Made by a program: the position numbers and the translations under genes
IMG/VR virus record: IMGVR_UViG_3300018022_000004
DNA from: a virus
Length of the DNA stretch: 64,000 bases
Reading direction: 5' to 3' (one strand)
Notes under the pieces: generated by a model
Database searches by the model: none
The model's input: only the letters and a program-made list of their open reading frames with translations
What the model was told of the DNA's origin: nothing
Shown here: piece after piece, positions 19,202-47,014 of the stretch
Layout: each line of letters opens with the position of its first letter
Numbering within the stretch: the first letter of the stretch is position 1

Positions 19202-19290
19202 GCCAGTGTGGGCGAGAGGCTAATGCCAGCAGACTGTAAATCTGCCGCCCCTTGCGGGCTTCGCAGGTTCAAATCCTGCCGCTGGCACCA
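19202..19290 (+). tRNA. tRNA-Tyr(GTA)
   Basis: Loop CTGTAAA; long V arm; CCA. Confidence 0.95.
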
Positions 19291-19329
19291 AGTTTCAGGG
19301 CACGGGAGATGCGTGCCCGGATAGGATTA

Positions 19330-19417
19330 GCCGGGCTGGCGGAACGGGAGACGCAGGGCACTTAAAACGCCTGGGCCTTCAAAAGCCATGGGGGTTCGAT
19401 TCCCTCGCCCGGTACCA
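19330..19417 (+). tRNA. tRNA-Leu(TAA)
   Basis: Loop CTTAAAA; long V arm; CCA. Confidence 0.92.
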
Positions 19418-19423
19418 AGGTCT

Positions 19424-19510
19424 GCGGTCGTGTCGGAATAGGCAGACGAGCAAGGTTGAGAGCCTTGTGCCTGCAAGGGCGTGGGGGTTCGATTCCCCCC
19501 GACCGCACCA
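19424..19510 (+). tRNA. tRNA-Leu(GAG)
   Basis: Loop TTGAGAG; CCA. Confidence 0.93.
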
Positions 19511-19515
19511 AGACT

Positions 19516-19602
19516 GCGAGGGTGTCGTAACTGGCAGCCGAGCGGGTCTGAGAGGCCCGTGGGGGAGACCCCGTGAGGGTTCGAGTCCCTCCCTTCGCAC
19601 CA
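19516..19602 (+). tRNA. tRNA-Leu(GAG), second
   Basis: Loop CTGAGAG; CCA. Confidence 0.92.
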
Positions 19603-19609
19603 GGTCTAT

Positions 19610-19698
19610 GCCGGGATGGCGGAACAGGCAGACGCACTGGGCTTAGAACCCAGCACCCCGCAAGGGGCATGGGGGTCCGAGTCCCCCTCCCGGTACCA
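19610..19698 (+). tRNA. tRNA-Leu(TAG)
   Basis: Loop CTTAGAA; T loop TCCGAGT; CCA. Confidence 0.93.
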
Positions 19699-19708
19699 AG
19701 TTCGTCCT

Positions 19709-19795
19709 GCGGATGTGTCGGAACTGGCAGACGAGCAGCGCTCAGAACGCTGTGTGGGCAACCATGTGGAGGTTCGAGTCCTCTCATCCGCACCA
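19709..19795 (+). tRNA. tRNA-Leu(CAG)
   Basis: Loop CTCAGAA; CCA. Confidence 0.94.
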
Positions 19796-19801
19796 GGCTT
19801 T

Positions 19802-19888
19802 GCGGTCGTGCTGGAAATGGCAGACGGGCGGGCCTCAGAAGCCCGTGTGGGAGACCACGTGGAGGTTCGATGCCTCTCGGCCGCACCA
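19802..19888 (+). tRNA. tRNA-Leu(CAG), second
   Basis: Loop CTCAGAA; CCA. Confidence 0.93.
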
Positions 19889-19894
19889 AGACTT

Positions 19895-19981
19895 GCCGCA
19901 GTGGCGGAACAGGCAGACGCACACGGCCCAAACCCGTATGCCGTCAAAGGCGTGGGGGTTCGACTCCCCCCTGCGGCACCA
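19895..19981 (+). tRNA. tRNA-Leu(CAA) with C33
   Basis: Loop CCCAAAC; Leu-type D and V arms; CCA. Confidence 0.85.
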
Positions 19982-20032
19982 GGCTCGCAACCGACTGTCC
20001 GATTTTCGGACATGCCGGTCGCACAGGTTCAA

Positions 20033-20126
20033 GGAGAGGTGGCCGAGCGGCCTAAGGCGCTGGTTTGCTAAACCAGAGTACGGGCTAAACCCCGTACCGT
20101 GGGTCCGAATCCCACCCTCTCCGCCA
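20033..20126 (+). tRNA. tRNA-Ser(GCT)
   Basis: Loop TTGCTAA; G73; CCA. Confidence 0.95.
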
Positions 20127-20132
20127 TTTCAG

Positions 20133-20220
20133 GGAAGGACCCGCTGCGTGGGCGGCAACTGGCTTTGAACCCCAGGGCACGGGTGACACCGTGGGCGTTC
20201 GACTCGTCGTCCTTCCGCCA
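20133..20220 (+). tRNA. tRNA-Ser(TGA), 8/4 fold
   Basis: GGAAGGAC/GTCCTTCC acceptor; 4-bp T stem; loop TTTGAAC; G73 CCA. Confidence 0.82.
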
Positions 20221-20267
20221 ACCTTTACAGGCAGGGGCATATTTACACCTGCTGTAAAGAATGCTTT

Positions 20268-20358
20268 GGAGAGGTGCCCGAGCGGCCTAAGGGGCACGCC
20301 TGGAAAGCGTGTAGTCCTCAAAAAGGACTCGTGGGTCCGAATCCCACCCTCTCCGCCA
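20268..20358 (+). tRNA. tRNA-Ser(GGA)
   Basis: Loop CTGGAAA; G73 CCA. Confidence 0.95.
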
Positions 20359-20365
20359 TTCCCCC

Positions 20366-20451
20366 GGAGGGTACTGCCGAACGGCCGGCAACTGGCCTCG
20401 AAAGCCAGGGCAGGGCAAAACCTGGGGGTTCGATTCCTCTGCCCTCCGCCA
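20366..20451 (+). tRNA. tRNA-Ser(CGA), 8/4 fold
   Basis: GGAGGGTA/TGCCCTCC acceptor; 4-bp T stem; loop CTCGAAA. Confidence 0.85.
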
Positions 20452-36582: not shown

Positions 36583-38105
36583 ATGAGAGTCCACAACGTA
36601 AGGGTAACAACTCCTCCTCGACGCACTCCATAGTCCTGATGCCTCCAGGAAAGCTGCCCGAGATACAGACGGACGAGTACTGGGACTTCGGCTGGCAGCA
36701 CTTCACTGCGGCCGACCGTACCTCCAAGGAGAACTACCTGGGGTACCTCATCCACGGCACCCTCGTAGACCTCATCGGGGAGTCCAATGCCAACATCGTG
36801 ACCGACGCCCTGTTCGCCTCCTCCAGGGGCACTGGGGGAAGGTTCTCCGAGGCCCTGAGGCTCAACGGCTACGGCATAGACCACCAGAGCCGCCTCATAC
36901 TGCCGGCCAACTGGGACGGCAGGGGGGCGAACCTGGAGTTCTTCGAGGACTTCAGGAGGTACTTCCTGGAGAACCCTGTCGTCGTCCTGGGGGGCAACGA
37001 CAACGACGGCGACGAGCACCCCCTGGCAGGGGAGGGGAGGGGCATAGACTTTGGCCTCCCCGAGGACGGCTTCGCCACGCCAGACCTGGTGGCCAGGAAG
37101 GACACGGTGGACGGTACGGCCCACTGGGTCCTGTTCAACCGCAGGACAGGGGCCAAGGTCAGGCTGACCTTCGACAGCTACCCTGCCGAGAAGGTATCCC
37201 GCAACCCTGCCAACAAGGCGGCCGTGCAGGCGAGCAGGTTCATGCAGGGGCCACAGAAGCCCGTCCCCAAGGCAGAGGTGCCGGAGCTGGTGGACGTCAA
37301 GATAACCGGCTTCTGTCCGGCAGGGTGCAAGTTCTGCTACCAGGGGAGCGGTCCCAACGGGGTGCATGCCAAGACCCAGGACCTCTACTCCCTGGTATAC
37401 CGCCTGGCAGAGATGAGGGTATTTGAGGCGGCCCTGGGCGGCGGCGAGCCTACCCTCCACCCGGACTTCTCCGACATCCTCAAGAGCCTCAGGGGCCATG
37501 GCATCGTGCCCAACTTCTCTACCCGCAGCCTCGTGTGGCTGAGGCACAAGAACGCCGGGCAGATAGCAGAGACATGCGGCTCCTTCGCCTACTCCGTCAG
37601 CACGGGGAAGGACGTCAAGGCGCTGGAGAGGGCGCTGCACAGGGCCGGGCTGGACAGCCTCCTGGACGACCACGACAAGGTGGCGGTCCAGTATGTCCTG
37701 AACACGGGGGGGGACCTCTACGGCGTCCTGGAGGAGGCCAGGAAGAGCCTCAACTACACCAGGGTGACCATCCTGGGGTTCAAGCGTGCCGGCCTGGGAA
37801 AGGACTTCCAGGAAGTCCCCGAGGACTGGGTATCTACGGTAAGGAAGGTGCGCAAGGAGCATAGCTGCGTGCCCATCGGCGTGGACACGCTGGTGGTACA
37901 GCAGCACGGGGAGGAACTGAGGGGCAAGCTGGGCGTACAGGAGGCCCTGATGACCAGGGAGGAAGGCAAGTTCTCCATGTACATCGACGCCGTCAGCGGC
38001 ACGATGGGGCCGTCCTCCTACTGCGACCCATCCCTCATGGTCCCCCTGGTGGAGAAGGGCACCACGGAGGCCGACAGGATAAGGAGGGAGTTCCAGAAGT
38101 GGTGA
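36583..38105 (+). CDS. radical SAM protein with apparent 5' frameshift near 36604
   Basis: CPAGCKFC, GGGEPTLHP; MRVHNVR and NNSSSTHS lie in different frames. Confidence 0.8.
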
Positions 38106-39115
38106 AGAGGATACTCATAACCGGGGGGGCAGGGTTCATCGCCCACCACCTTATCGACCACCTCATCCGCAACACAGGGTGGGAGGTGGTGGTCCTCGAC
38201 AAGCTGACCTATGCCGCCAACGGCCTGGACAGGCTGCGGGAGATAGAGGCCTACGGGCACCCGAGGGTCACCGTCCACCCCGTGGACCTGTGCTACCGCA
38301 TCGGGGAGGGGCTGGAGAGGGAGCTGGGGCGCATAGACTACTTCGTCCACATGGCGGCGGAGACGCACGTGGACAACTCCATCGCCAGCCCACGCACCTT
38401 CGTGGAGTCCAACGTCGTAGGCACCTTCGAGATGCTGGAGCTTGCCCGCAGGATGCCCGGCCTCCAGAGGTTCGTGTACTTCTCGACCGACGAGGTGTTC
38501 GGGCCAGCGCCGGAGGGCACTGCCTTCAAGGAGTGGGACAGGTACAACTCCACCAACCCCTACTCCGCCACCAAGGCGGGAGGGGAGGAGCTTGCCCTTG
38601 CCTGGGCCAACACCTACAGGGTGCCGGTCCTTGTCACCCATACCATGAACGCCTTCGGCGAGAGGCAGCACTCGGAGAAGTTCATCCCCAAGTGCGTGGC
38701 CTCGCTGATGCGGGGCGACACCATACCCATCCATGCCTCACCGGACAGGAAGAGGTCCGGCAGCCGCTTCTATATCCACTGCCGCAACATAGCCGACGCC
38801 GTGCTCTTCCTTCTGGAGAAGGGGGAGTTCCGTGAGAAGTACAACGTGGTAGGCGAGCAGGAGGTATCCAACCTCGTGCTGGCCACGGACATCGCCCGCA
38901 TCATGGGCAGGCCCCTCCGCTACGAGATGGTGGACTTCCACTCCTCCAGGCCAGGGCACGACCTCAGGTACGGGCTGGACGGCTCCAGGATGGCGGGGAT
39001 GGGGTGGAAGGTGCCCATGAGCTTCGAGGAGAGCCTGAGGAAGACCATCGTATGGATGACCCGGCCGGAGCACTACAACTGGCTGAGGCTGGGGACGCAT
39101 GGACCTGTGGGTTGA
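38099..39115 (+). CDS. rmlB: dTDP-glucose 4,6-dehydratase (extended SDR)
   Basis: ITGGAGFI, DKLTYA, AAETHVDNSI, STDEVFG, YSATKA, RPGHDLRY. Confidence 0.88.
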   Translation: MVKRILITGGAGFIAHHLIDHLIRNTGWEVVVLDKLTYAANGLDRLREIEAYGHPRVTVHPVDLCYRIGEGLERELGRIDYFVHMAAETHVDNSIASPRTFVESNVVGTFEMLELARRMPGLQRFVYFSTDEVFGPAPEGTAFKEWDRYNSTNPYSATKAGGEELALAWANTYRVPVLVTHTMNAFGERQHSEKFIPKCVASLMRGDTIPIHASPDRKRSGSRFYIHCRNIADAVLFLLEKGEFREKYNVVGEQEVSNLVLATDIARIMGRPLRYEMVDFHSSRPGHDLRYGLDGSRMAGMGWKVPMSFEESLRKTIVWMTRPEHYNWLRLGTHGPVG

Positions 39116-39392
39116 CGACAAGAGGCCCCCGGAGGCATACGGCTTCGAGGGGTTCACATGGGCCAGGACGTCGGAGGAGGCCATAGCCCTGCTGAGGACA
39201 GGGGAGGTAAGGTTCGCATCCCTGGACCACGACCTGGGGCTGGAGAGCGGGACCGGCTACGACATCGTATGCTGGATGGAGGAGCACAACACCTGGCCGC
39301 CTGACGGCGTGAGGGTCCACTCCATGAACCCCGTGGGCAGGAAGCGCATGGAGACGGTAATAGAAAGGCAGTACGGGAGGACGGTACCATGA
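39099..39392 (+). CDS. cyclic-phosphate processing receiver domain protein
   Basis: LWVDDKR, SLDHDLG, TGYD...W, VHSMNPVGR..M. Confidence 0.8.
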   Translation: MDLWVDDKRPPEAYGFEGFTWARTSEEAIALLRTGEVRFASLDHDLGLESGTGYDIVCWMEEHNTWPPDGVRVHSMNPVGRKRMETVIERQYGRTVP

Positions 39393-40742: not shown

Positions 40743-40939
40743 GGGAATGCGAAAAACCGTAATAGCCGTCCAGCTAAGGATAGCGGAGGTAGAGACGGGC
40801 TGGGGCAAGCGGCTGGCCCAACTGTGCAAGAGCGTGTGCGAGGGAGCAATCCTGGGGAAGGAGCTGGACATCTACGAGTCCTCGGCCTCGGCCTACGTAG
40901 ACGACAGTGCCCAGAGCCAAGCAAAGGAGGAAGGAAGCC

Positions 40940-41476
40940 ATGGGTCTTAGCAGGGAGCAAGCGTTCGAGGTAATCAAGAGGGAGAGGGAGTACCAGGACA
41001 GGGTGTGGCCGAGGGACGGCCACCCGCTGGTCAAGCAGTACGACTACACTGCCCCGCACCTCCTCATGCTGGAGGACTACTACGACGAGGCCAGAAGGAA
41101 GTGGAGGAAGTCCGTGGACGAGGTGGACGTCCTCAGGACCATCGGCAAGATGGCGACCATAGCCTACCGGGCACTGACGGAGGTTGTGCAGGCAAACGGG
41201 AGCAGGGGCCTTGCCGTGCCCGTGGCCCTGGTCAACGAGGCCAGGGACCGCCAGGACAGGGAGCACCCCAGGACCAAGGACAACGCCGGGCAGTACAAGT
41301 TCGCCGCCCCGCATGTCTACCTCCTGGGCCAGTACTTGGGGCACCTCGGAAACCGCTGGTACAGGGGCGACCGTGACGGGGTGGTAAACGGCCTCGTGGA
41401 AGTCACTGCCATATGCGTCCGGGCGCTAGAGGAGATAGAGGGCCCGGACCTGCTCTTCGTCGGGCTGCGGGACTAG
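40940..41476 (+). CDS. internally duplicated MazG-like all-alpha protein
   Basis: Two repeats of ER.YQD/ARDRQD...APH...KMATIAYRAL/EVTAICVRAL. Confidence 0.55.
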   Translation: MGLSREQAFEVIKREREYQDRVWPRDGHPLVKQYDYTAPHLLMLEDYYDEARRKWRKSVDEVDVLRTIGKMATIAYRALTEVVQANGSRGLAVPVALVNEARDRQDREHPRTKDNAGQYKFAAPHVYLLGQYLGHLGNRWYRGDRDGVVNGLVEVTAICVRALEEIEGPDLLFVGLRD

Positions 41477-42124: not shown

Positions 42125-42201
42125 GTGGCCGAGGCCGAAGTCGTCGAGGCGCTAGGCTGTGAACCTAGTCTAAGAGGGTCCGAGTCCCTCCGGTCACCCC
42201 A
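42125..42201 (+). tRNA. tRNA-His(GTG), no encoded G-1
   Basis: Loop CTGTGAA; C73; T at -1; atypical D loop. Confidence 0.85.
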
Positions 42202-42281
42202 ATCAAGCTGGCAGACCCGTATGACCGTTCCGGGTACTAAGAGCCAAAGGTCGTTAATCATGGCCGCCAGCAAGGTCTTTT

Positions 42282-42358
42282 GGTCCCGTCGCCCAGCGGA
42301 CTAGGGCGCTGCGCTCCGAACGCAGAGGTCGTGGGTCCGAATCCCACCGGGACTTCCA
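42282..42358 (+). tRNA. tRNA-Arg(CCG)
   Basis: Loop CTCCGAA; CCA. Confidence 0.93.
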
Positions 42359-42439
42359 GATTGCGTGGGTGAATCCCCTTGCAGGGGGAGGGATAGGCGG
42401 CCCCAGGCCCAGGGCACGGCGACCCACGCAGAGAGTTTT

Positions 42440-42518
42440 GGCCCCGTAGCTCAGCCTGGACTAGAGCAGCGGTCTACGAAACCGAAGGTCGAGGGTTCAA
42501 ATCCCTCCGGGGCTTCCA
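42440..42518 (+). tRNA. tRNA-Arg(ACG)
   Basis: Loop CTACGAA; CCA. Confidence 0.95.
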
Positions 42519-42613
42519 TCTTGCGCAGGTAGGGTGGCCACAGGGTGAGCAGCGGGAGGCATCCCGAGGACATCTGCAAGACCCCTTATACCATGCCTGC
42601 ACCAGATTATCAG

Positions 42614-42690
42614 GCCCCCGTGGCCCAGACGGATAGGGTACCGGTCCTCGAAACCGGACGCCGAGGGTTCGACTCCCTCCGGGGGTTCCA
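42614..42690 (+). tRNA. tRNA-Arg(TCG) with C33
   Basis: CCGGT-CCTCGAA-ACCGG. Confidence 0.88.
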
Positions 42691-42774
42691 GGTTTGTGGT
42701 GGGTGGTCACGCCGTTGACAACGCCGATGGGCGGACGAGGCGACTGGCCGGGGCGTCCCGCCCGAACAGATTGC

Positions 42775-42861
42775 TGGGGTGTAGGCGACGTTGGTAAAGC
42801 CACTTGACTGTTAATCAAGCGCCTTGCGGCACCGGGGGTTCGATTCCTCCCGCCCCAGCCA
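42775..42861 (+). tRNA. tRNA-Asn(GTT) with long variable arm
   Basis: Loop CTGTTAA; V arm GCC-TTGC-GGC; G73 CCA. Confidence 0.85.
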
Positions 42862-42962
42862 AAGATTGCCGTCCCGACCGTACAGCGGGAAGACGTGTTG
42901 CCACTACCGAAGCAGGACGTCATTGACTAGGTCATAATGTGGCCGGACGGCAACGGGTTAGG

Positions 42963-43039
42963 CCCGTTTAAGCCGATGCGGTGCATGGCGCTCCCCTGAA
43001 AAGGGAGAGAACCCCGTTCGACTCGGGGAGGCGGGACCA
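42963..43039 (+). tRNA. tRNA-Phe(GAA), atypical
   Basis: Loop CTGAAAA; A8; CCCCG/CGGGG T stem; CCA. Confidence 0.8.
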
Positions 43040-43046
43040 AGTTTAT

Positions 43047-43123
43047 CAGGGTGTAGCTCAGCCTGGCAGAGCGCATGCTTGGGGTGCATGAGGCCGTGGG
43101 TTCAAATCCCTCCATCCTGACCA
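43047..43123 (+). tRNA. tRNA-Pro(GGG)
   Basis: Loop TTGGGGT; CCA. Confidence 0.93.
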
Positions 43124-43131
43124 AGTTCCTG

Positions 43132-43210
43132 GCGTGCCAGAGGGTTCGACTCCCGAGGCCAACGGCGCTGTTAGCAAAGGGTTCGACTCCCGAGGCCACC
43201 GGAGGCACGC
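43132..43210 (+). repeat. double T-arm element: 21-nt direct repeat inside a closing stem
   Basis: AGGGTTCGACTCCCGAGGCCA at 43141 and 43178; GCGTGCC/GGCACGC closing stem. Confidence 0.75.
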
Positions 43211-43213
43211 AGA

Positions 43214-43289
43214 CGGTGTGTAGCTCAGCGGCTAGAGCACTCGGTTTGGGGCCGAGGGGTCGTGGGTCCGAATCCCACCACGCCGACCA
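43214..43289 (+). tRNA. tRNA-Pro(TGG)
   Basis: Loop TTTGGGG; CCA. Confidence 0.93.
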
Positions 43290-43296
43290 AGTTTAT

Positions 43297-43373
43297 CAGG
43301 GTGTAGCTCAGCCTGGCAGAGCGCTGGTTTCGGGAACCAGAGGCCGAGAGTTCAAATCTCTCCATCCTGACCA
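43297..43373 (+). tRNA. tRNA-Pro(CGG)
   Basis: Loop TTCGGGA; near-duplicate of Pro(GGG). Confidence 0.94.
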
Positions 43374-43380
43374 AGGTTGT

Positions 43381-43455
43381 TCCGAGGTCGTCTAACCGGT
43401 AGGACGCATGGCTCTGAACCATGAAATGCGGGTTCGACCCCAGCTCTCGGAACCA
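43381..43455 (+). tRNA. tRNA-Gln(CTG)
   Basis: Loop CTCTGAA; T-stem mismatch; CCA. Confidence 0.85.
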
Positions 43456-43557
43456 AGGCTCGGGGAGGGCGAGTTAGCGTGGCCTATGGGCCACTTTATA
43501 GACAGGATGCCTCCCCACTATGCTAGGAAGCAGCTCGGAAGTGGGATGCTTCAGAGT

Positions 43558-43632
43558 TCAGGAGTAGCTCAACGGTAGAGCGTCCGGCTGTTAACCGGAA
43601 TGTTGGGGGTCCGATTCCCTCCTCCTGAGCCA
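43558..43632 (+). tRNA. tRNA-Asn(GTT)
   Basis: Loop CTGTTAA; short V; G73 CCA. Confidence 0.94.
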
Positions 43633-43639
43633 AGCTCAA

Positions 43640-43717
43640 GGGAGCGTAACTCAAAGGGGCAAGAGAGCCAGCCTTTTAAGCTGGTGCGTGCGGGCACCCA
43701 ATCCGCCGCTCCCACCA
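43640..43717 (+). tRNA. tRNA-Lys(TTT) with aberrant T loop
   Basis: CCAGC-CTTTTAA-GCTGG; T loop CACCCAA instead of TTCRANT. Confidence 0.75.
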
Positions 43718-43724
43718 AGGACTA

Positions 43725-43802
43725 GCCGCCGTGGCGCAACTGGACCAGCGCACCCGGCTCTTACCCGGAGGGTTGGAGGTTCGAGTCCTCTCGGCGGCAC
43801 CA
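43725..43802 (+). tRNA. tRNA-Lys(CTT)
   Basis: Loop CTCTTAC; CCA. Confidence 0.9.
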
Positions 43803-43808
43803 AGATTC

Positions 43809-43885
43809 GGGTCGGTAGCTCAACTAGGCAGAGCAAGGGCCTCTTAAGCCCGAGGTTGAGGGTTCGATTCCCTCCCGGCCTACCA
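43809..43885 (+). tRNA. tRNA-Lys(CTT), second
   Basis: Loop CTCTTAA; CCA. Confidence 0.92.
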
Positions 43886-43891
43886 AGAAAG

Positions 43892-43952
43892 CCCGGCGAT
43901 GTGGGGTTCAAGTCCCCACCTTGAGTGTCGTTCAACTGGCTAGGATACCGGG
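43892..43952 (+). ncRNA. circularly permuted tRNA-like module (T arm, mini-hairpin, D arm)
   Basis: CCCGG...GGGGTTCAAGTCCCC...GTTCAACTGGCTAGGAT-A-CCGGG. Confidence 0.55.
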
Positions 43953-43959
43953 GGCATCG

Positions 43960-44034
43960 GCCGATGGAGCTAGGATGGTATAGCGCCTGCCTGAAGAGCA
44001 GGAGTGACCGGTTCGATTCCGGGCATCGGCACCA
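43960..44034 (+). tRNA. tRNA-Phe(GAA), second
   Basis: Loop CTGAAGA; CCA. Confidence 0.9.
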
Positions 44035-44044
44035 AGTTTGTTGT

Positions 44045-44118
44045 TCCGAGGTCGGCTAACGGTAGGCCGCTGCGCTCTGGACGCAGCTATCGGGGTCCGA
44101 ATCCCTGCCTCGGAACCA
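44045..44118 (+). tRNA. tRNA-Gln(CTG), second
   Basis: Loop CTCTGGA; CCA. Confidence 0.9.
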
Positions 44119-44125
44119 GGACTAC

Positions 44126-44202
44126 AGCGGGGTGGAGCAGCCTGGTAGCTCGTGAGGCTCATAACCTCAAGGTCGCCGGTTCAAATCCGGCCCCCGCAAC
44201 CA
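44126..44202 (+). tRNA. tRNA-Met(CAT), initiator-like
   Basis: xGCGGGGTGGAGCAGCCTGGTAGCTC fMet-type body; 1:72 mismatch. Confidence 0.9.
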
Positions 44203-44294
44203 TTCGGGTCGGGATGCCAGCCGGGAGACCGTGACTGGATGCCAAGGGTATACGGCAAAGCCCGTAGAGAGCAGGAACCGGCCCGCAGCATTGA

Positions 44295-44371
44295 TGCGGG
44301 GTAGAACTCTGGTGAGTTTAGGGGTCTCATAAGCCTCTTACAGGTGGGTCCGATTCCCATTCCCGCTACCA
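44295..44371 (+). tRNA. tRNA-CAT (Met/fMet-like; Ile2 not excluded)
   Basis: Loop CTCATAA; T1.T72 mismatch; CCA. Confidence 0.8.
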
Positions 44372-44376
44372 TCTCA

Positions 44377-44452
44377 GGGGCGCAGGGTAGCTCAGTCTGG
44401 TAGAGCAGCCCGGAAAGGCTGGTCGGAGGTTCAAATCCTCCCCCGAGGCCCC
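44377..44452 (+). ncRNA. tRNA mimic with truncated anticodon arm and extended acceptor, no CCA
   Basis: Canonical D and T arms; only 13 nt between them (AGCC-CGGAAA-GGCT hairpin). Confidence 0.6.
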
Positions 44453-44458
44453 GTAGCA

Positions 44459-44554
44459 GGCACGCCGATTCGGAGAGGACCGCAGGCGGCTAACCCAGGA
44501 GCAGCGTACGCAACCTCCCGGACCCCGCAGGCAAGTCGCTGGACAAGGCGTGCC
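44459..44554 (+). ncRNA. putative ~96-nt structured RNA
   Basis: Perfect GGCACGCC/GGCGTGCC closing stem. Confidence 0.4.
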
Positions 44555-44565
44555 GAGGATTACGT

Positions 44566-44643
44566 GGCGGCGTAGCTCAGTCGGCAGAGCCGGGGTCCCA
44601 TAAGCCCTGTGAGTCGGAGGTTCGAGTCCTCTCGCCGCTACCA
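44566..44643 (+). tRNA. tRNA-Met(CAT), elongator-like, C33
   Basis: GGCGGCGTAGCTCAG body; loop CCCATAA. Confidence 0.85.
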
Positions 44644-44644
44644 G

Positions 44645-44835
44645 GATGCGGAGGGCCGCCGTCCACAGACGGGCGGCTGTGGCTCAGTACCGTAGCCGGG
44701 CCTGCTAGCGGGCGAGGCTACGGGCCACGTCCGGTTAGCTCCGGACCTCTACGAGAGTCGAGGGCCGCAGACAGTTGCACAGCGGCAGCCCGGTACCCAT
44801 CCGGGTGTAGCGAGTCGGCATGCTACGGCCTTCGA
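44645..44835 (+). ncRNA. putative multi-hairpin RNA (~190 nt)
   Basis: Run of hairpins: CCGCCGTC/GACGGGCGG, CGTAGCC/GGCTACG, TCCGG/CCGGA, GCCGC/GCGGC, CCCGG/CCGGG. Confidence 0.4.
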
Positions 44836-44840
44836 GCTTT

Positions 44841-45045
44841 GCCCGTGTATGCGAACAGGCACAGCGGCGTACAACGAAGAGAACGCCTCGGTAGGAGCGA
44901 GTTGCGGAGGAACCGAAAGGGGCGGGACGCCCGGAGGCCAGGGACAATCTGGCCACCCTACGGGGTGTAGGGAATCACGTTATCGCCTACCGAAGCAGTC
45001 CCCGCAAGGGACTGTATGCGGGTTCGATTCCCGCCACGGGCACCA
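44841..45045 (+). ncRNA. 205-nt tRNA-Leu-like RNA with a 106-nt inserted domain
   Basis: GCCCGTG/CACGGGC acceptor, A73, CCA; Leu-type D arm; long V arm; canonical T arm; non-canonical anticodon arm. Confidence 0.7.
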
Positions 45046-45048
45046 AGC

Positions 45049-45121
45049 TGGACGCCAGAGATGCGGGTCCGAATCCCGCAGGCACACCGTGCTGCGTAGC
45101 CTTGATGGTAGCAGTGGCCAG
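45049..45121 (+). ncRNA. second permuted tRNA-like module
   Basis: T arm GCGGG-TCCGAAT-CCCGC, closed hairpin, D-like loop with GG, flanks CTGG..CCA/TGGCCAG. Confidence 0.4.
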
Positions 45122-45179
45122 GCTCCTAGGCACCTGGCCGTGCCTTCGTTCAACAGGAAGGACGCTGGCCCTGTTTCCA

Positions 45180-45254
45180 GGCCTGGTAAGCTAACTGGCA
45201 AACTGCCGGTCTCCAAAACCGGACTTAGGGGTTCAAATCCTCTCCAGGTCGCCA
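45180..45254 (+). tRNA. tRNA-Trp(CCA)
   Basis: Loop CTCCAAA; G73 CCA. Confidence 0.92.
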
Positions 45255-45259
45255 AGTCT

Positions 45260-45463
45260 ATGGAAGAAGGGATGCTAGCAGAAGCGTTCGGGAGAATCCT
45301 GAGGTTCCCCCTCAGCCCGGAGGTCGTGATAGTGGGCAGGGAGGTATGGGACAGGCTGCCCGAGGCCGAGGCCCGGATTGTGGAGTTCGACGGGTTCAGG
45401 CACCTGGCGGCTGAGCATAACGGCACCCTCTTCCTCCACCCCCTCTCGGAGGCGGGCGACTGA
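45260..45463 (+). CDS. small hypothetical protein within the tRNA array
   Basis: 67-aa ORF between the two Trp tRNAs. Confidence 0.45.
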   Translation: MEEGMLAEAFGRILRFPLSPEVVIVGREVWDRLPEAEARIVEFDGFRHLAAEHNGTLFLHPLSEAGD

Positions 45464-45470
45464 CTATTGC

Positions 45471-45557
45471 AGGGGCGTGGCCCAGCGGCAACGGCAGCGG
45501 TCTCCAAAACCGCCACGCTACGGCGTTTCGGGGGTTCGAGTCCCTCCGCCCCTGCCA
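45471..45557 (+). tRNA. tRNA-Trp(CCA) with long variable arm
   Basis: Loop CTCCAAA; V arm ACGC-TACG-GCGT; G73 CCA. Confidence 0.85.
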
Positions 45558-45559
45558 AC

Positions 45560-45582
45560 TTTCTGAGGTATTATATAGGTGA
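45560..45582 (+). promoter_or_regulatory. internal promoter
   Basis: GAGGTATTATATAG, identical to the 41821-41834 core. Confidence 0.6.
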
Positions 45583-45618
45583 GCGGTTTTCTGTGCCCCT
45601 TAGTAGGGGGGACGACCT

Positions 45619-46170
45619 ATGAGCCACGACTGCCTGATACTCGACATGAACTGGACGCCGGTCGGCTTCTGCTCCTGGCAGGAGGCGGTCAGGCTGTGGG
45701 TAAAGGACCGTGCCCGGATAGTCAAGGAGGACGAGGCGGGCAGGGTGCTGCACAGCCCCTCCTTCGAGATGGGCATGCCCAGGGTCATCCGGGTGCGGAA
45801 CGCCTGGGTACGGCGCAGGCGGCAGTCCGTCCCCTGCACGAGGCGCAACCTGTTAGTCCGTGACAACGCCGCCTGCCAGTACTGCGGCAGGACCATCAGG
45901 ACGCACGAGTACACCACGGACCACGTCGTGCCCATCTGCCAGGGCGGAAGGACGACCTGGGAGAACACGGTCACGGCATGTATGAAGTGCAACAAGCACA
46001 AGGGCGGCAGGACGCCGGAGCAGGCGGGCATGGAGCTTCTCAGCACGCCCAAGGCCCCCAAGGCAGCGGACCCCCGCTTCAACTTCAAGCTGCACATCAA
46101 GACCATGCGGCCGGAGTGGAAGGACTGGGAGTCCTGGCTGTACTGGAACGCCGTCTTAGACAAGGAGTAA
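45619..46170 (+). CDS. HNH endonuclease
   Basis: CQYCG...TDHVVP...GG.TTWEN.VTAC.KCN..KG. Confidence 0.9.
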   Translation: MSHDCLILDMNWTPVGFCSWQEAVRLWVKDRARIVKEDEAGRVLHSPSFEMGMPRVIRVRNAWVRRRRQSVPCTRRNLLVRDNAACQYCGRTIRTHEYTTDHVVPICQGGRTTWENTVTACMKCNKHKGGRTPEQAGMELLSTPKAPKAADPRFNFKLHIKTMRPEWKDWESWLYWNAVLDKE

Positions 46171-46221
46171 GGCTCGTGGCCCCGTGGGCCAGCCATATAC
46201 GGGGCACAAGATTAGAGTTCC

Positions 46222-46298
46222 ACCCCTGTAGCTCAGCGGACTAGAGTGCCGGTCCTCTAAACCGGGTGACGTGGGTCCGAATCCCACCAGGGGTACCA
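46222..46298 (+). tRNA. tRNA-Arg(TCT) with C33
   Basis: CCGGT-CCTCTAA-ACCGG; CCA. Confidence 0.88.
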
Positions 46299-46332
46299 AG
46301 ATGCCCTAAAGCCAGGGCGAAGGAGCAAGCCT

Positions 46333-46608
46333 ATGCACATACGGTCCCAAGCGCTGGCAGTAGTGGTAGTCCTTTTCGTGCTGGCAGTCGTGCTCCTGTG
46401 GCCGGTAAAGCGCCCGGCGAGCCACTGCCCAAAGCCAGCAGGCGGATGCAGGACGTCCGTGCAGTCGAAGGGGGGAGACGACGATGTCCCCCTGGCATAC
46501 TGGATAGTGATTACCTCGTCCGCCGAGGAAGAAGCAGTGCAGGAAGAGGAGACGCCATCGGATACCGACGTTGATGCTGGCGACGCCGGGGATGGCGGCG
46601 GAGACTAA
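46333..46608 (+). CDS. small membrane/secreted protein with acidic tail
   Basis: GGAG SD; N-terminal hydrophobic helix. Confidence 0.5.
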   Translation: MHIRSQALAVVVVLFVLAVVLLWPVKRPASHCPKPAGGCRTSVQSKGGDDDVPLAYWIVITSSAEEEAVQEEETPSDTDVDAGDAGDGGGD

Positions 46609-46614
46609 GGTTTT

Positions 46615-46690
46615 GGCCCCGTAGCTCAGCGTATAGAGCGGCCGCCTCCTAAGCGGCAGGTCGTGGGTTAGACTCCCACCGGGGCTTCCA
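46615..46690 (+). tRNA. tRNA-Arg(CCT), T loop TTAGACT
   Basis: Loop CTCCTAA; A56; CCA. Confidence 0.88.
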
Positions 46691-46707
46691 TTTTACCAGG
46701 AGGACAG

Positions 46708-46929
46708 ATGGCGGGGACGGGGACGACTAGCACGGCATGGTTCGGCTTCTGGCTCGGGGCTGGCCTGACAGGAGCGTTCATCCTGCTTATGGCCCTGCTC
46801 CGCTACGGCTGGAAGGGGCTGGAGTGGCTCCTCCGTTCGTCCTCGTACAGGCCCGTCGCCTGCCTGCTCCTGGGGATGCTTTTCCTGGGGGCCTACAGGC
46901 TCCTCAGGAGGAGGCTAGGCCAGCAGTAG
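46708..46929 (+). CDS. small two-TM membrane protein
   Basis: AGGAGG SD; hydrophobic. Confidence 0.6.
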   Translation: MAGTGTTSTAWFGFWLGAGLTGAFILLMALLRYGWKGLEWLLRSSSYRPVACLLLGMLFLGAYRLLRRRLGQQ

Positions 46930-46935
46930 ATGCGT

Positions 46936-47014
46936 GTCCCCGTAGCTCAGCCCGGACTAGAGCAGCGGTTTCCTAAACCGAAGGCCGCAGGTTCAAATCC
47001 TGCCGGGGATACCA
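46936..47014 (+). tRNA. tRNA-Arg(CCT), second
   Basis: Loop TTCCTAA; CCA. Confidence 0.93.

What the first reader, a model, noticed from the sequence alone, without database searches (positions are those of the whole stretch)
44841..45045. 205-nt tRNA-Leu-like RNA carrying an extra 106-nt domain
Seen: a perfect 7-bp acceptor with A73 and CCA, a Leu-style D arm (A15 with T48), a 7-bp variable arm and a canonical T arm. The anticodon arm is non-canonical. An extra helix, TCGGTAGG/CCTACCGA (44888-44993), encloses GAAA- and TACG-capped hairpins. Established: bacterial LeuRS largely ignores the anticodon. Inference: the RNA could be leucylated but non-decoding, serving as a decoy, a tmRNA-like scaffold or an aminoacyl donor. 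Removing the insert does not restore a normal anticodon arm, so it is not a simple intron.
Basis: partly seen in the sequence, partly recalled or inferred. Interest (0 to 1): 0.72.

Follow-up and report, generated by a model that had tools for sequence, protein, structure and literature searches.

The report
Leucine-tRNA-like phage RNA with extra domain
A giant peat-soil phage carries, inside one of its tRNA gene arrays, a conserved 205-base RNA built on a leucine-tRNA body whose anticodon function has been replaced by a new 106-base folded domain, so it is almost certainly a working tRNA look-alike that does not read codons and whose job is still unknown.

Summary
Window 44841-45045 folds as a class II cloverleaf: 7-bp acceptor, A73, encoded CCA, Leu-type D arm, long variable arm and canonical T arm. 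It also has a degenerate anticodon-like hairpin (H1) and a 106-nt four-way-junction domain (H2, 44888-44993).

ARAGORN, Rfam and the Rfam tRNA model do not call it. I found it in six sequence variants from related jumbo phages of peat and wetland metagenomes, one copy per genome, always in the same tRNA array. Nine base pairs in H2 and the variable arm show compensatory double changes. Acceptor, D and T arms are invariant, more so than in any of the 21 real tRNAs beside it. The H1 loop changes length and sequence and lacks U33.

No excision gives a conserved anticodon, and one metatranscriptome contig runs across the 5' border of H2. So it is not an intron-bearing tRNA, a tmRNA or a pseudogene.

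Best reading: a non-decoding RNA derived from tRNA-Leu. The tRNA body supplies processing, stability and perhaps leucylation, and H2 is the working module with an unknown partner.

It is a new RNA family and a new variant of known tRNA-like RNAs. The scan had not noted it elsewhere.

The parts
44841..45045 (+). Whole 205-nt tRNA-Leu-like RNA gene (T at -1, encoded CCA at the 3' end)
   Evidence: Fold. Full-length covariance-model matches of 238-256 bits in related phages. Likeness in divergent contigs begins at 44839 and ends at 45047-45051.
44841..44847 (+). Acceptor stem, 5' strand (GCCCGTG)
   Evidence: Pairs with 45035-45041. Invariant in all six variants.
44850..44866 (+). D arm: 3-bp stem TGC/GCG and loop GAACAGGCACA with A14, A15, G18, G19
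   Evidence: Loop nearly identical to that of the window's Leu tRNAs. Invariant.
44868..44885 (+). H1: degenerate anticodon-arm-like hairpin (CGT.C / G.ACG) with a 6-8 nt loop that lacks U33
   Evidence: Fastest-changing part: about 10 of 20 columns vary and three of six variants carry indels.
44888..44993 (+). H2: 106-nt extra domain. It has a long stem with two internal loops (one purine-rich, GGAA/GAA) leading to a four-way junction with three hairpins.
   Evidence: Compensatory changes at pairs 48-153, 51-150, 53-148, 55-146, 96-114, 99-111 and 100-110. Only 4 of its unpaired columns vary. No Rfam family. No second copy anywhere.
44920..44932 (+). Hairpin Ha (GGGCG-GGA-CGCCC) inside H2
   Evidence: One G-C to G-U change and one mismatch among the variants.
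44936..44954 (+). Hairpin Hb (GGCCAGG-GACAA-TCTGGCC) inside H2
   Evidence: Three covarying pairs: 96-114, 99-111, 100-110.
44955..44966 (+). Hairpin Hc (ACCC-TACG-GGGT), a C(UACG)G tetraloop hairpin inside H2
   Evidence: Invariant except one C-G to U-G change.
44995..45015 (+). Long variable arm (G-CAGTCCC-CGCAA-GGGACTG-T), class II type
   Evidence: Compensatory changes at 158-172 and 159-171.
45018..45034 (+). T arm GCGGG-TTCGATT-CCCGC
   Evidence: Canonical. Invariant except T-loop U55 to C in one variant, a change also seen in real tRNAs of this phage.
45035..45045 (+). Acceptor 3' strand CACGGGC, discriminator A73, CCA
   Evidence: Invariant.

Best explanation
This is a functional, non-decoding tRNA-like RNA that arose from a phage tRNA-Leu gene.

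It is transcribed as part of the long tRNA operon (inferred). It is cut out by the ordinary tRNA end-processing enzymes: RNase P at G1 after U-1, and 3' trimming to the encoded CCA (inferred from the anatomy). It keeps its 106-nt domain in the mature RNA.

The intact acceptor, D, variable and T arms act as a handle for processing and nuclease resistance, and as a docking surface for tRNA-binding proteins. This may include leucyl-tRNA synthetase, since A73 and A15-U48 are kept.

The former anticodon arm (H1) has decayed into a spacer hairpin. The inserted four-way-junction domain H2 is the working module and binds a still unknown host or phage factor.

In effect it is a natural 'tRNA scaffold' that displays a structured RNA. 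It sits in a phage that invests heavily in the conflict over tRNAs: more than 35 tRNAs, an Rnl1-type ligase, a cREC phosphoesterase, and in relatives RlaP and a CCA-adding-type enzyme.

Shown here: the structure, its conservation, its Leu-like ancestry, that it does not decode, and that it is not a simple intron. Inferred: the processing route, the charging, and that H2 binds a partner.
For: STRUCTURE
- MFE cloverleaf with z = -4.76.
- 63-pair consensus fold.
- 7 pairs changed on both sides against 2.1 +/- 1.1 in shuffles (0 of 500) and 0-2 in slid controls.
- 9 compensatory pairs over six variants, with only 3 non-standard cells outside H1.

SELECTION
- RNA identity is 97% and 90% in phages whose flanking protein is only 73% and 52% identical.
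- Variable columns: body 1 of 57, H2 26 of 106 (only 4 unpaired), variable arm 7 of 21, H1 about 10 of 20.
- All 21 real tRNAs of the array differ from their variant-C orthologs by 4-21 nt in the acceptor, D and T parts. This RNA differs by 0.

LEU ANCESTRY
-.

NOT AN INTRON
- H1 has no stable 7-nt loop and no U33.
- The only intron model, from ARAGORN -i (Asp-atc, intron 33+107), has a poor stem, and its 'anticodon' and position 37 change in one variant.
- No contig in four runs joins across H2 (table 5).
- A 152-nt contig from an RNA library runs from 44852 to 45004, with 36 nt before the 5' border of H2 (record 11).

DISCRETE GENE
- Likeness in divergent contigs is confined to 44839-45051.
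- One copy per 317-kb genome.
- No promoter-like or + strand terminator-like site within the array.

SCAFFOLD LOGIC
- RNAs put in place of a tRNA's anticodon arm are processed and accumulate stably in E. coli (PMC3753655).
- YrlA shows a natural tRNA-like module proposed to protect an RNA (PMC4201824).

TRNA-CONFLICT CONTEXT
-; PMC7824862.
Against: - No partner for H2 is known, and no motif in it could be named.
- A mere scaffold would be free to covary in the acceptor and T stems. These are instead invariant at the sequence level, which points to a sequence-specific use of the tRNA body, such as charging or a specific protein. The scaffold idea alone does not explain that.
- The RNA is missing from related phages with the same array layout (L005, L009-L012), so it is dispensable for this phage group.
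- Expression rests on one low-depth contig (3.7) in one RNA library, and carried-over DNA cannot be excluded.
- All six variants are within about 12% of each other, so the covariation comes from few events.
Confidence: 0.45

Rival explanations
1. The 3' end chemistry is the function. The RNA is charged with leucine by the host LeuRS but cannot enter the ribosome. It would then serve as a non-ribosomal leucine donor for a transferase, or as a decoy that ties up LeuRS, EF-Tu or a defence enzyme that attacks tRNA acceptor ends. H2 would exclude it from translation or recruit the user enzyme.
For: - A73, A15/T48, G18G19, the Leu-type D arm and an encoded CCA are all kept.
- The whole acceptor stem, D arm and T arm are invariant, more so than in any real tRNA beside it. 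This fits recognition by sequence-specific tRNA enzymes.
- Established knowledge: E. coli LeuRS does not read the anticodon.
- Seven ordinary Leu tRNAs already cover all six Leu codons, so this eighth Leu-like gene is not needed for decoding.
Against: - Charging is untested.
- The host, and so its LeuRS rules, are unknown.
- This reading does not explain why 106 nt of conserved structure is needed.
Confidence: 0.25
2. It is an interrupted tRNA gene. H2, or a larger segment, is an intron removed by self-splicing or by phage nuclease plus ligase, giving a decoding class II tRNA.
For:
- The phage encodes an Rnl1-type RNA ligase and end-healing enzymes.
- An HNH endonuclease gene lies 570 nt downstream.
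- Established knowledge: bacterial tRNA-Leu genes are classic homes of group I introns (see PMC3984707).
Against: - 106 nt is about half the size of the smallest known group I introns, and Rfam finds no intron or ribozyme model.
- Removing H2 leaves H1, whose loop is 6-8 nt, lacks U33 and varies.
- ARAGORN's model has a badly paired stem, and its anticodon and position 37 change in variant V5.
- No insert-free allele or joined form appears in four runs or in IMG/VR.
- An RNA-library contig crosses the 5' border of H2.
- H2's unpaired bases are under strong constraint.
- The HNH gene is also present in the relatives that lack the RNA.
Confidence: 0.05
3. It is a miniature tmRNA-like ribosome-rescue RNA. 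H2 would carry a short reading frame (UUG at 44902 to UAG at 44968-70, 22 codons, AGGAG just upstream).
For: - A tRNA-like body with a long helix where the anticodon arm should be.
- The T arm is identical to the Rfam tmRNA consensus T arm.
- An open 22-codon frame exists in all variants (read).
Against: - No G3-U70; there is C3-G70 instead.
- A full D stem and a long variable arm are present.
- ARAGORN's tmRNA search is negative.
- Substitutions in the frame follow base pairs, not codons: 5 of 14 are at third positions, and Trp, Pro and Thr codons change.
- The frame lies inside stable hairpins.
- The tail of the frame is unlike known degradation tags.
Confidence: 0.03
4. It is a decaying tRNA-Leu pseudogene that picked up a selfish palindromic insertion and has no function of its own.
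For: - It is absent from some related phages.
- H1 is decaying.
- H2 has 8-bp terminal inverted repeats.
Against: - It is far more conserved than the flanking DNA and proteins.
- Compensatory changes keep nine pairs.
- The body is invariant.
- H2 occurs only here, so it does not behave as a repeat.
Confidence: 0.03

Closest known systems
Engineered 'tRNA scaffold' chimeras (Ponchon and Dardel; PMC3753655)
   Same: Acceptor, D and T arms are kept and a foreign structured RNA is closed by a helix in the anticodon-arm region. The chimeras are processed by tRNA enzymes and accumulate as stable RNAs.
   Different: Those are man-made and replace the anticodon arm cleanly. This one is natural, keeps a vestigial anticodon-like hairpin as well as the insert, and has a class II long variable arm and Leu identity marks.
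tmRNA (SsrA)
   Same: A tRNA-like acceptor and T arm with CCA, a long helix leaving the tRNA core, and a non-canonical role. Phage-encoded tmRNAs are known.
   Different: tmRNA has G3-U70, no D stem, pseudoknots and a tag frame, and needs SmpB. None of these is met here.
Bacterial and phage Y RNA-like YrlA (RF02553; PMC4201824)
   Same: A non-decoding RNA with a true tRNA-like elbow, sometimes cut by RNase P and given CCA. The tRNA fold is proposed to protect it. YrlA-like modules seem to lie in this same array (weak hit; first-stage notes).
   Different: YrlA is circularly permuted (T arm, closed acceptor, D arm) and its ends form the Ro-binding stem. Here the order is that of a normal tRNA with open acceptor ends. 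There is no Rfam YrlA match on this RNA.
Phage T4 stable RNAs 'species 1' and 'species 2' (rnaC, rnaD) in the T4 tRNA cluster (from my own knowledge, not checked here)
   Same: Small stable RNAs of unknown function encoded among phage tRNA genes, made from the same precursors and ending in CCA.
   Different: No sequence or structural likeness was tested. They are not described as complete cloverleaves carrying an extra domain.
Bacterial tRNA-Leu genes with a group I intron (PMC3984707)
   Same: A tRNA-Leu gene interrupted by a structured RNA, and a nearby homing-type endonuclease gene in a phage setting.
   Different: That intron sits in the anticodon loop, is 200 nt or more with a catalytic core, and leaves a normal anticodon arm. 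Here the insert is 106 nt, lies beside a degenerate anticodon arm, and has no intron model match.
Tyrosine-accepting tRNA-like structures of plant RNA viruses (PMC10870377)
   Same: Viral, chargeable tRNA mimics that carry extra helical domains beyond the tRNA shape.
   Different: Those are 3' ends of eukaryotic RNA virus genomes built with pseudoknotted acceptors. This is a free-standing gene in a DNA phage with a true cloverleaf.

Membership tests
Canonical decoding tRNA (Rfam RF00005; tRNA-Leu) | 7-bp acceptor, D arm, T arm with a TTCGA-type loop, discriminator base and CCA | tested here: met
Canonical decoding tRNA (Rfam RF00005; tRNA-Leu) | 5-bp anticodon stem with a 7-nt loop, U33, purine 37 and a conserved anticodon | tested here: not met
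   H1 has an internal mismatch, a 6-8 nt loop and A at the U33 place, and its sequence and length vary.
Canonical decoding tRNA (Rfam RF00005; tRNA-Leu) | Recognised by tRNA detectors | tested here: not met
   ARAGORN default and Rfam tRNA at the gathering score or at E up to 10 do not call it.
Canonical decoding tRNA (Rfam RF00005; tRNA-Leu) | Leu identity marks: A73, A15-U48, G18G19, 3-bp D stem, long variable arm | tested here: met
   Actual charging could not be tested.
Intron-containing bacterial tRNA (group I intron) | Intron in the anticodon loop with a group I core (P3-P9, G-binding site), 200 nt or more | tested here: not met
   The insert is 106 nt and has no Rfam intron hit.
Intron-containing bacterial tRNA (group I intron) | Excision restores a canonical, conserved anticodon arm | tested here: not met
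Intron-containing bacterial tRNA (group I intron) | Spliced RNA form exists | tested here: inconclusive
   No joined form in the contigs of four runs. One RNA-library contig crosses the 5' border unspliced. Contigs drop rare forms.
tmRNA | G3-U70 alanine identity pair | tested here: not met
   C3-G70.
tmRNA | D region without a stem, a tag reading frame with a conserved C-terminal tail, and pseudoknots | tested here: not met
   A D stem is present. The only open frame is not conserved at the codon level. ARAGORN -m is negative. Rfam matches only the T arm.
YrlA / bacterial Y RNA | Permuted order (T arm, closed acceptor, D arm) inside a Ro-binding stem formed by the RNA's ends | tested here: not met
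   Normal tRNA order with open acceptor ends. No YrlA hit on 44836-45050.
YrlA / bacterial Y RNA | Encoded next to a Ro60 (TROVE) gene | tested here: not met
   No TROVE match in the 99%-complete related phage genome. A host copy cannot be excluded.
tRNA-scaffolded / tRNA-like non-decoding stable RNA (functional class, not a curated family) | Intact tRNA body with tRNA-type ends, plus a retained non-tRNA domain under selection | tested here: met
   Retention in RNA has weak support only.
tRNA-scaffolded / tRNA-like non-decoding stable RNA (functional class, not a curated family) | Accumulates as a discrete processed RNA | not testable with these tools
   Only assembled contigs were available, so no ends or levels can be read.

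The most novel reading that the evidence does not exclude
The RNA is a chargeable (leucine) tRNA mimic whose 106-nt domain is a new kind of RNA module, a protein- or ligand-binding platform. It would redirect an aminoacylated tRNA body away from the ribosome to a new use. Examples are feeding leucine to a non-ribosomal acceptor, or trapping or sensing a host enzyme that attacks or monitors tRNA acceptor ends during infection. That would make it a third natural class of non-decoding aminoacyl-tRNA-like RNA, beside tmRNA and the cell-wall tRNAs.
Probability: 0.2. Interest if true: 0.85.

Novelty: new variant of a known kind. Interest (0 to 1): 0.62.

Why it matters
Phage tRNA arrays are usually read as codon-supply or anti-defence spare parts. 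This RNA shows that such arrays also evolve tRNA-derived RNAs that have left decoding yet are under stronger sequence constraint than the real tRNAs beside them.

It defines a new structured RNA family: a 106-nt four-way-junction domain with no Rfam match, on a natural tRNA scaffold. Its features can be tested directly: size, ends, charging and partner.

If it is charged, it would widen the short list of aminoacyl-tRNA-like molecules that act outside translation. If it is not, it is a natural precedent for the tRNA-scaffold trick used in the laboratory.

It also warns annotators that tRNA detectors miss such genes.

Tried and rejected
SEARCHES THAT FOUND NOTHING USEFUL
- Two exact 21-23-mers from the window variant in IMG/VR: no hit.
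- Protein-based locus search in IMG/VR with the two flanking proteins: no relative.
- Scan of 185,579 prokaryote genomes with a conserved H2 pattern: one hit in Paenibacillus, which on reading is chance.
- Scans of IMG/VR with the invariant 5' and 3' body sequences, looking for an insert-free or differently loaded version: only the same two phage contigs.
- H2-only covariance model over the window, ten loci and two whole phage records: no second copy.
- Rfam with permissive settings on the gene alone: only T-arm-level noise, including tmRNA T arm, Tymo tRNA-like at 13 bits and RsmY at 12.6 bits.
- The scan's own notes have no look-alike elsewhere.

IDEAS TESTED AND DROPPED
- GGA motifs (7 in H2), as in CsrA/RsmA sponges: not enriched (p about 0.1 against dinucleotide shuffles; 6% of window stretches have as many).
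- A site complementary to the last 18 nt, as for a retroviral-type primer: none in the window.
- Resemblance of H1 in variant B to the sarcin-ricin loop (ACGAGAGAAC): not kept in the other variants.
- Brute-force deletions scored with ARAGORN: many permissive calls with conflicting anticodons, so uninformative.

ABSENCES THAT ARE NOT EVIDENCE
- The related 99%-complete phage genome has no match to LeuRS-type synthetase, L/F-transferase, SmpB, TROVE, CsrA, FemAB, cyclodipeptide synthase or EF-Tu. Host genes could serve.
- First run listing: no RNA holder listed.
- In RNA run X23 the spacers and the HNH gene had no cover. A part without cover is no evidence, and I do not use it as such.

NOT USED
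- Complex prediction and structure prediction, because no protein partner is in view.

Full report
WHERE IT LIES

The window is 64% G+C phage DNA. Earlier notes of this scan call it a giant peat-soil phage. I confirm relatives of 237 and 317 kb in IMG/VR, and near-identical DNA in at least 19 peat, wetland and soil studies.

ARAGORN finds 35 tRNA genes in two arrays:
- Array 1 (19202-20451) holds all class II tRNAs: Tyr, seven Leu covering all six codons, and four Ser.
- Array 2 (42131-47014) holds His, Arg, Asn, Phe, Pro, Gln, Lys, three Met-anticodon tRNAs and Trp.

The finding lies in array 2, between the third CAT-anticodon tRNA and tRNA-Trp. No promoter-like or + strand terminator-like site lies within the array, so it is probably made from the operon transcript and cut out. 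This last step is inference.

THE OBSERVATION

The tRNA body:
- Acceptor GCCCGUG/CACGGGC, A73 and encoded CCA, with U at -1.
- A 3-bp D stem with loop GAACAGGCACA.
- A long variable arm.
- T arm GCGGG-UUCGAUU-CCCGC.

Between the D arm and the variable arm there are two helices instead of one:
- H1 (44868-44885), an anticodon-arm-like hairpin.
- H2 (44888-44993), closed by UCGGUAGG/CCUACCGA. It runs through two internal loops to a four-way junction with three hairpins (GGA triloop, GACAA loop, UACG tetraloop).

ARAGORN, the Rfam tRNA model and every other Rfam family fail to call the gene.

RELATIVES

The protein encoded upstream (40907-41476) has relatives at 73%, 68%, 52% and 49% identity. 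I fetched their contigs. All show the same layout: that protein, a long tRNA array, an HNH gene.

Where the RNA is present and absent:
- Present at 97% identity in the 73% phage (L001-L004).
- Present at 90% identity in the 52% phage (L007, L008).
- Absent from the 68% and 49% phages (L005, L009-L012).

A pattern scan of metagenome contigs added a fourth variant (L020, L022, L023). IMG/VR gave two jumbo-phage records of variant C. Laying contigs of four public runs on the region showed two further variants with 18 and 24 differences. Their likeness to the window begins at 44839 and ends at 45047-45051, which are exactly the gene's ends.

One 99%-complete 317-kb genome holds a single copy. The H2 domain occurs nowhere else in the DNA I held.

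COVARIATION AND CONSTRAINT

On the stored alignment, 99.7% of cells pair. Seven pairs changed on both sides, against 2.1 +/- 1.1 in shuffles (0 of 500) and 0-2 when partners are slid.

Adding the two variants read gives nine compensatory pairs:
- In H2: 48-153, 51-150, 53-148, 55-146, 96-114, 99-111, 100-110.
- In the variable arm: 158-172, 159-171.

The pattern of change is telling:

| Part | Variable columns |
|---|---|
| tRNA body (acceptor, D arm, T arm, linkers) | 1 of 57 |
| H2 | 26 of 106, of which only 4 are unpaired |
| Variable arm | 7 of 21 |
| H1 | about 10 of 20, plus indels |

As a yardstick, each of the 21 ordinary tRNAs of the array differs from its best counterpart in the variant-C phage by 4-21 bases in the acceptor, D and T parts. 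This RNA differs by none.

So the body and the unpaired core of H2 are under strong sequence constraint. The H2 and variable-arm helices are under pairing constraint. H1 is nearly free. All variants are close relatives, so these are few events. The direction of the evidence is nonetheless uniform.

WHAT IT DERIVES FROM

After the true homologs, the best hits of the full-length model are the window's tRNA-Leu(TAG) and tRNA-Leu(GAG). A direct alignment of the body ranks the same two first.

A73 is shared by Leu and Tyr tRNAs here. A15 with U48 is found only in the Leu tRNAs; Ser and Tyr have G15/C48. The RNA is therefore a descendant of a tRNA-Leu gene that moved, or was copied, into the other array.

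NOT A DECODER, NOT AN INTRON

The H1 loop has 8 nt in two variants, 7 in two and about 6 in two. It has A where U33 should be and changes sequence.

If H2 were cut out, H1 would be the anticodon arm, and it is not usable as one.

ARAGORN with introns allowed offers 'tRNA-Asp(atc), intron of 107 at position 33'. That model's stem is poorly paired, and its anticodon and position 37 change in one variant.

At 106 nt, H2 is half the size of the smallest group I introns (established knowledge), and no intron or ribozyme model matches. No insert-free allele turned up.

One 152-nt contig from a wetland metatranscriptome (variant B letters, depth 3.7) runs from 44852 to 45004, with 36 nt before the 5' border of H2. 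This is weak evidence that the domain stays in the RNA. DNA carry-over cannot be excluded, and only 11 nt lie beyond the 3' border.

NOT A TMRNA OR Y RNA

There is no G3-U70, a full D stem is present, and there is no tmRNA call. Only the T arm matches the Rfam tmRNA model.

A 22-codon frame (UUG at 44902 to UAG at 44968) is open in all variants, but its substitutions follow base pairs, not codons.

The order of arms is that of a normal tRNA, not the permuted order of YrlA (PMC4201824), and no TROVE gene is in the related genome.

HOW IT MOST LIKELY WORKS

I commit to this reading:
- The tRNA body is kept because it gives precise ends, nuclease resistance and access to tRNA-binding proteins.
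- H2 is a functional module displayed on it.
- H1 is the vestige of the anticodon arm.

The laboratory 'tRNA scaffold' shows that this architecture is processed and stable in bacteria (PMC3753655). YrlA shows a natural use of a tRNA-like module for protection (PMC4201824).

The phage group is heavily engaged with tRNA biology, a kit that Iyer and colleagues link to conflicts over tRNA cleavage (PMC7824862). It carries:
- an Rnl1-type RNA ligase;
- a cyclic-phosphate-processing cREC domain;
- RlaP in relatives;
- a CCA-adding-type enzyme.

A plain scaffold does not explain the sequence-level invariance of the acceptor, D and T helices. That is the main reason I give the 'charged with leucine, and the 3' end is the point' rival 0.25, and rate the scaffold-plus-effector reading at only 0.45. 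The two are not exclusive.

I could name no partner. No L/F-transferase, Fem-type transferase, cyclodipeptide synthase, synthetase, SmpB, CsrA or EF-Tu gene is in the related phage. This says little, since host genes could serve.

NOVELTY AND SCORE

tRNA-like non-decoding RNAs are a known kind: tmRNA, YrlA, and the T4 stable RNAs of the tRNA cluster. This one differs by combining a complete class II cloverleaf, with Leu marks and encoded CCA, with a new conserved 106-nt domain.

I rate it a new variant of a known kind, and a new RNA family. Interest is 0.62. It is real, selected, missed by annotation tools and directly testable, but its function is open and its spread is so far limited to one clade of peat jumbo phages. 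The scan had not recorded it on other DNA.

Noticed in passing
window:44760-44833 (+); L001:13787-13850; L007:13531-13594: An imperfect hairpin of about 70 nt (MFE -37.3, z = -3.1). It is conserved at about 92% wherever the 205-nt RNA is present: just upstream of it in the window and L001, but about 120 nt downstream of it in L007. BLAST found no match to it in the relatives that lack the RNA (L005, L009). An RNA-library contig also covers 44765-44828. It may be a companion RNA or a processing signal.
   Followed up: partly
window:45046-45179 (+): The 134-nt spacer between this RNA and tRNA-Trp is itself 92% conserved, also in L005, where it follows tRNA-Met instead. It holds a T-arm-like hairpin (GCGGG-TCCGAAT-CCCGC), then a short closed hairpin, then a D-arm-like GTAGCC-TTGATGGTA-GC. 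That is the permuted T, acceptor, D order of YrlA-type Y RNAs. Rfam's YrlA model did not reach E 10 here.
   Followed up: partly
window:45619-46170 (+): A 183-aa HNH endonuclease gene (Pfam HNH_5, E 5e-16) sits inside the tRNA array, and at the same place in every relative fetched. This includes those without the 205-nt RNA, at 70-96% nucleotide identity. It recalls the T4 SegB homing endonuclease in the T4 tRNA cluster (PMC2330249).
   Followed up: partly
window:19610-19698, 20033-20126, 20268-20358, 43558-43632, 46222-46298: Several apparently good phage tRNAs have a T loop TCCGA.., that is C at position 55 where nearly all tRNAs have U (pseudouridine). The same U-to-C change is the only body difference among variants of the 205-nt RNA (variant D).
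   Followed up: no
window:757-2016, 39099-39392, 36639-38105; L001:5078-6013; L029: An RNA-repair gene set surrounds the arrays: an Rnl1-type RNA ligase, a cREC cyclic-phosphate-processing domain and a radical SAM protein in the window, RlaP nucleotidyltransferase in relatives, and a 457-aa CCA-adding-type enzyme in the variant-C phage.
   Followed up: partly
L005:15140-15215: The related phage that lacks the 205-nt RNA carries a CTA-anticodon (amber-reading) tRNA just after its HNH gene, where the window has tRNA-Arg(TCT). This could be a suppressor tRNA and a hint of stop-codon reassignment in that relative.
   Followed up: no
window:44344-44452: Rfam gives a weak YrlA hit (25.8 bits, E 0.015) at 44344-44406 and a truncated tRNA hit (33.7 bits, model positions 5-66) at 44385-44444. 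In one divergent phage contig this element follows the 205-nt RNA directly (joint 45047 to 44388).
   Followed up: no
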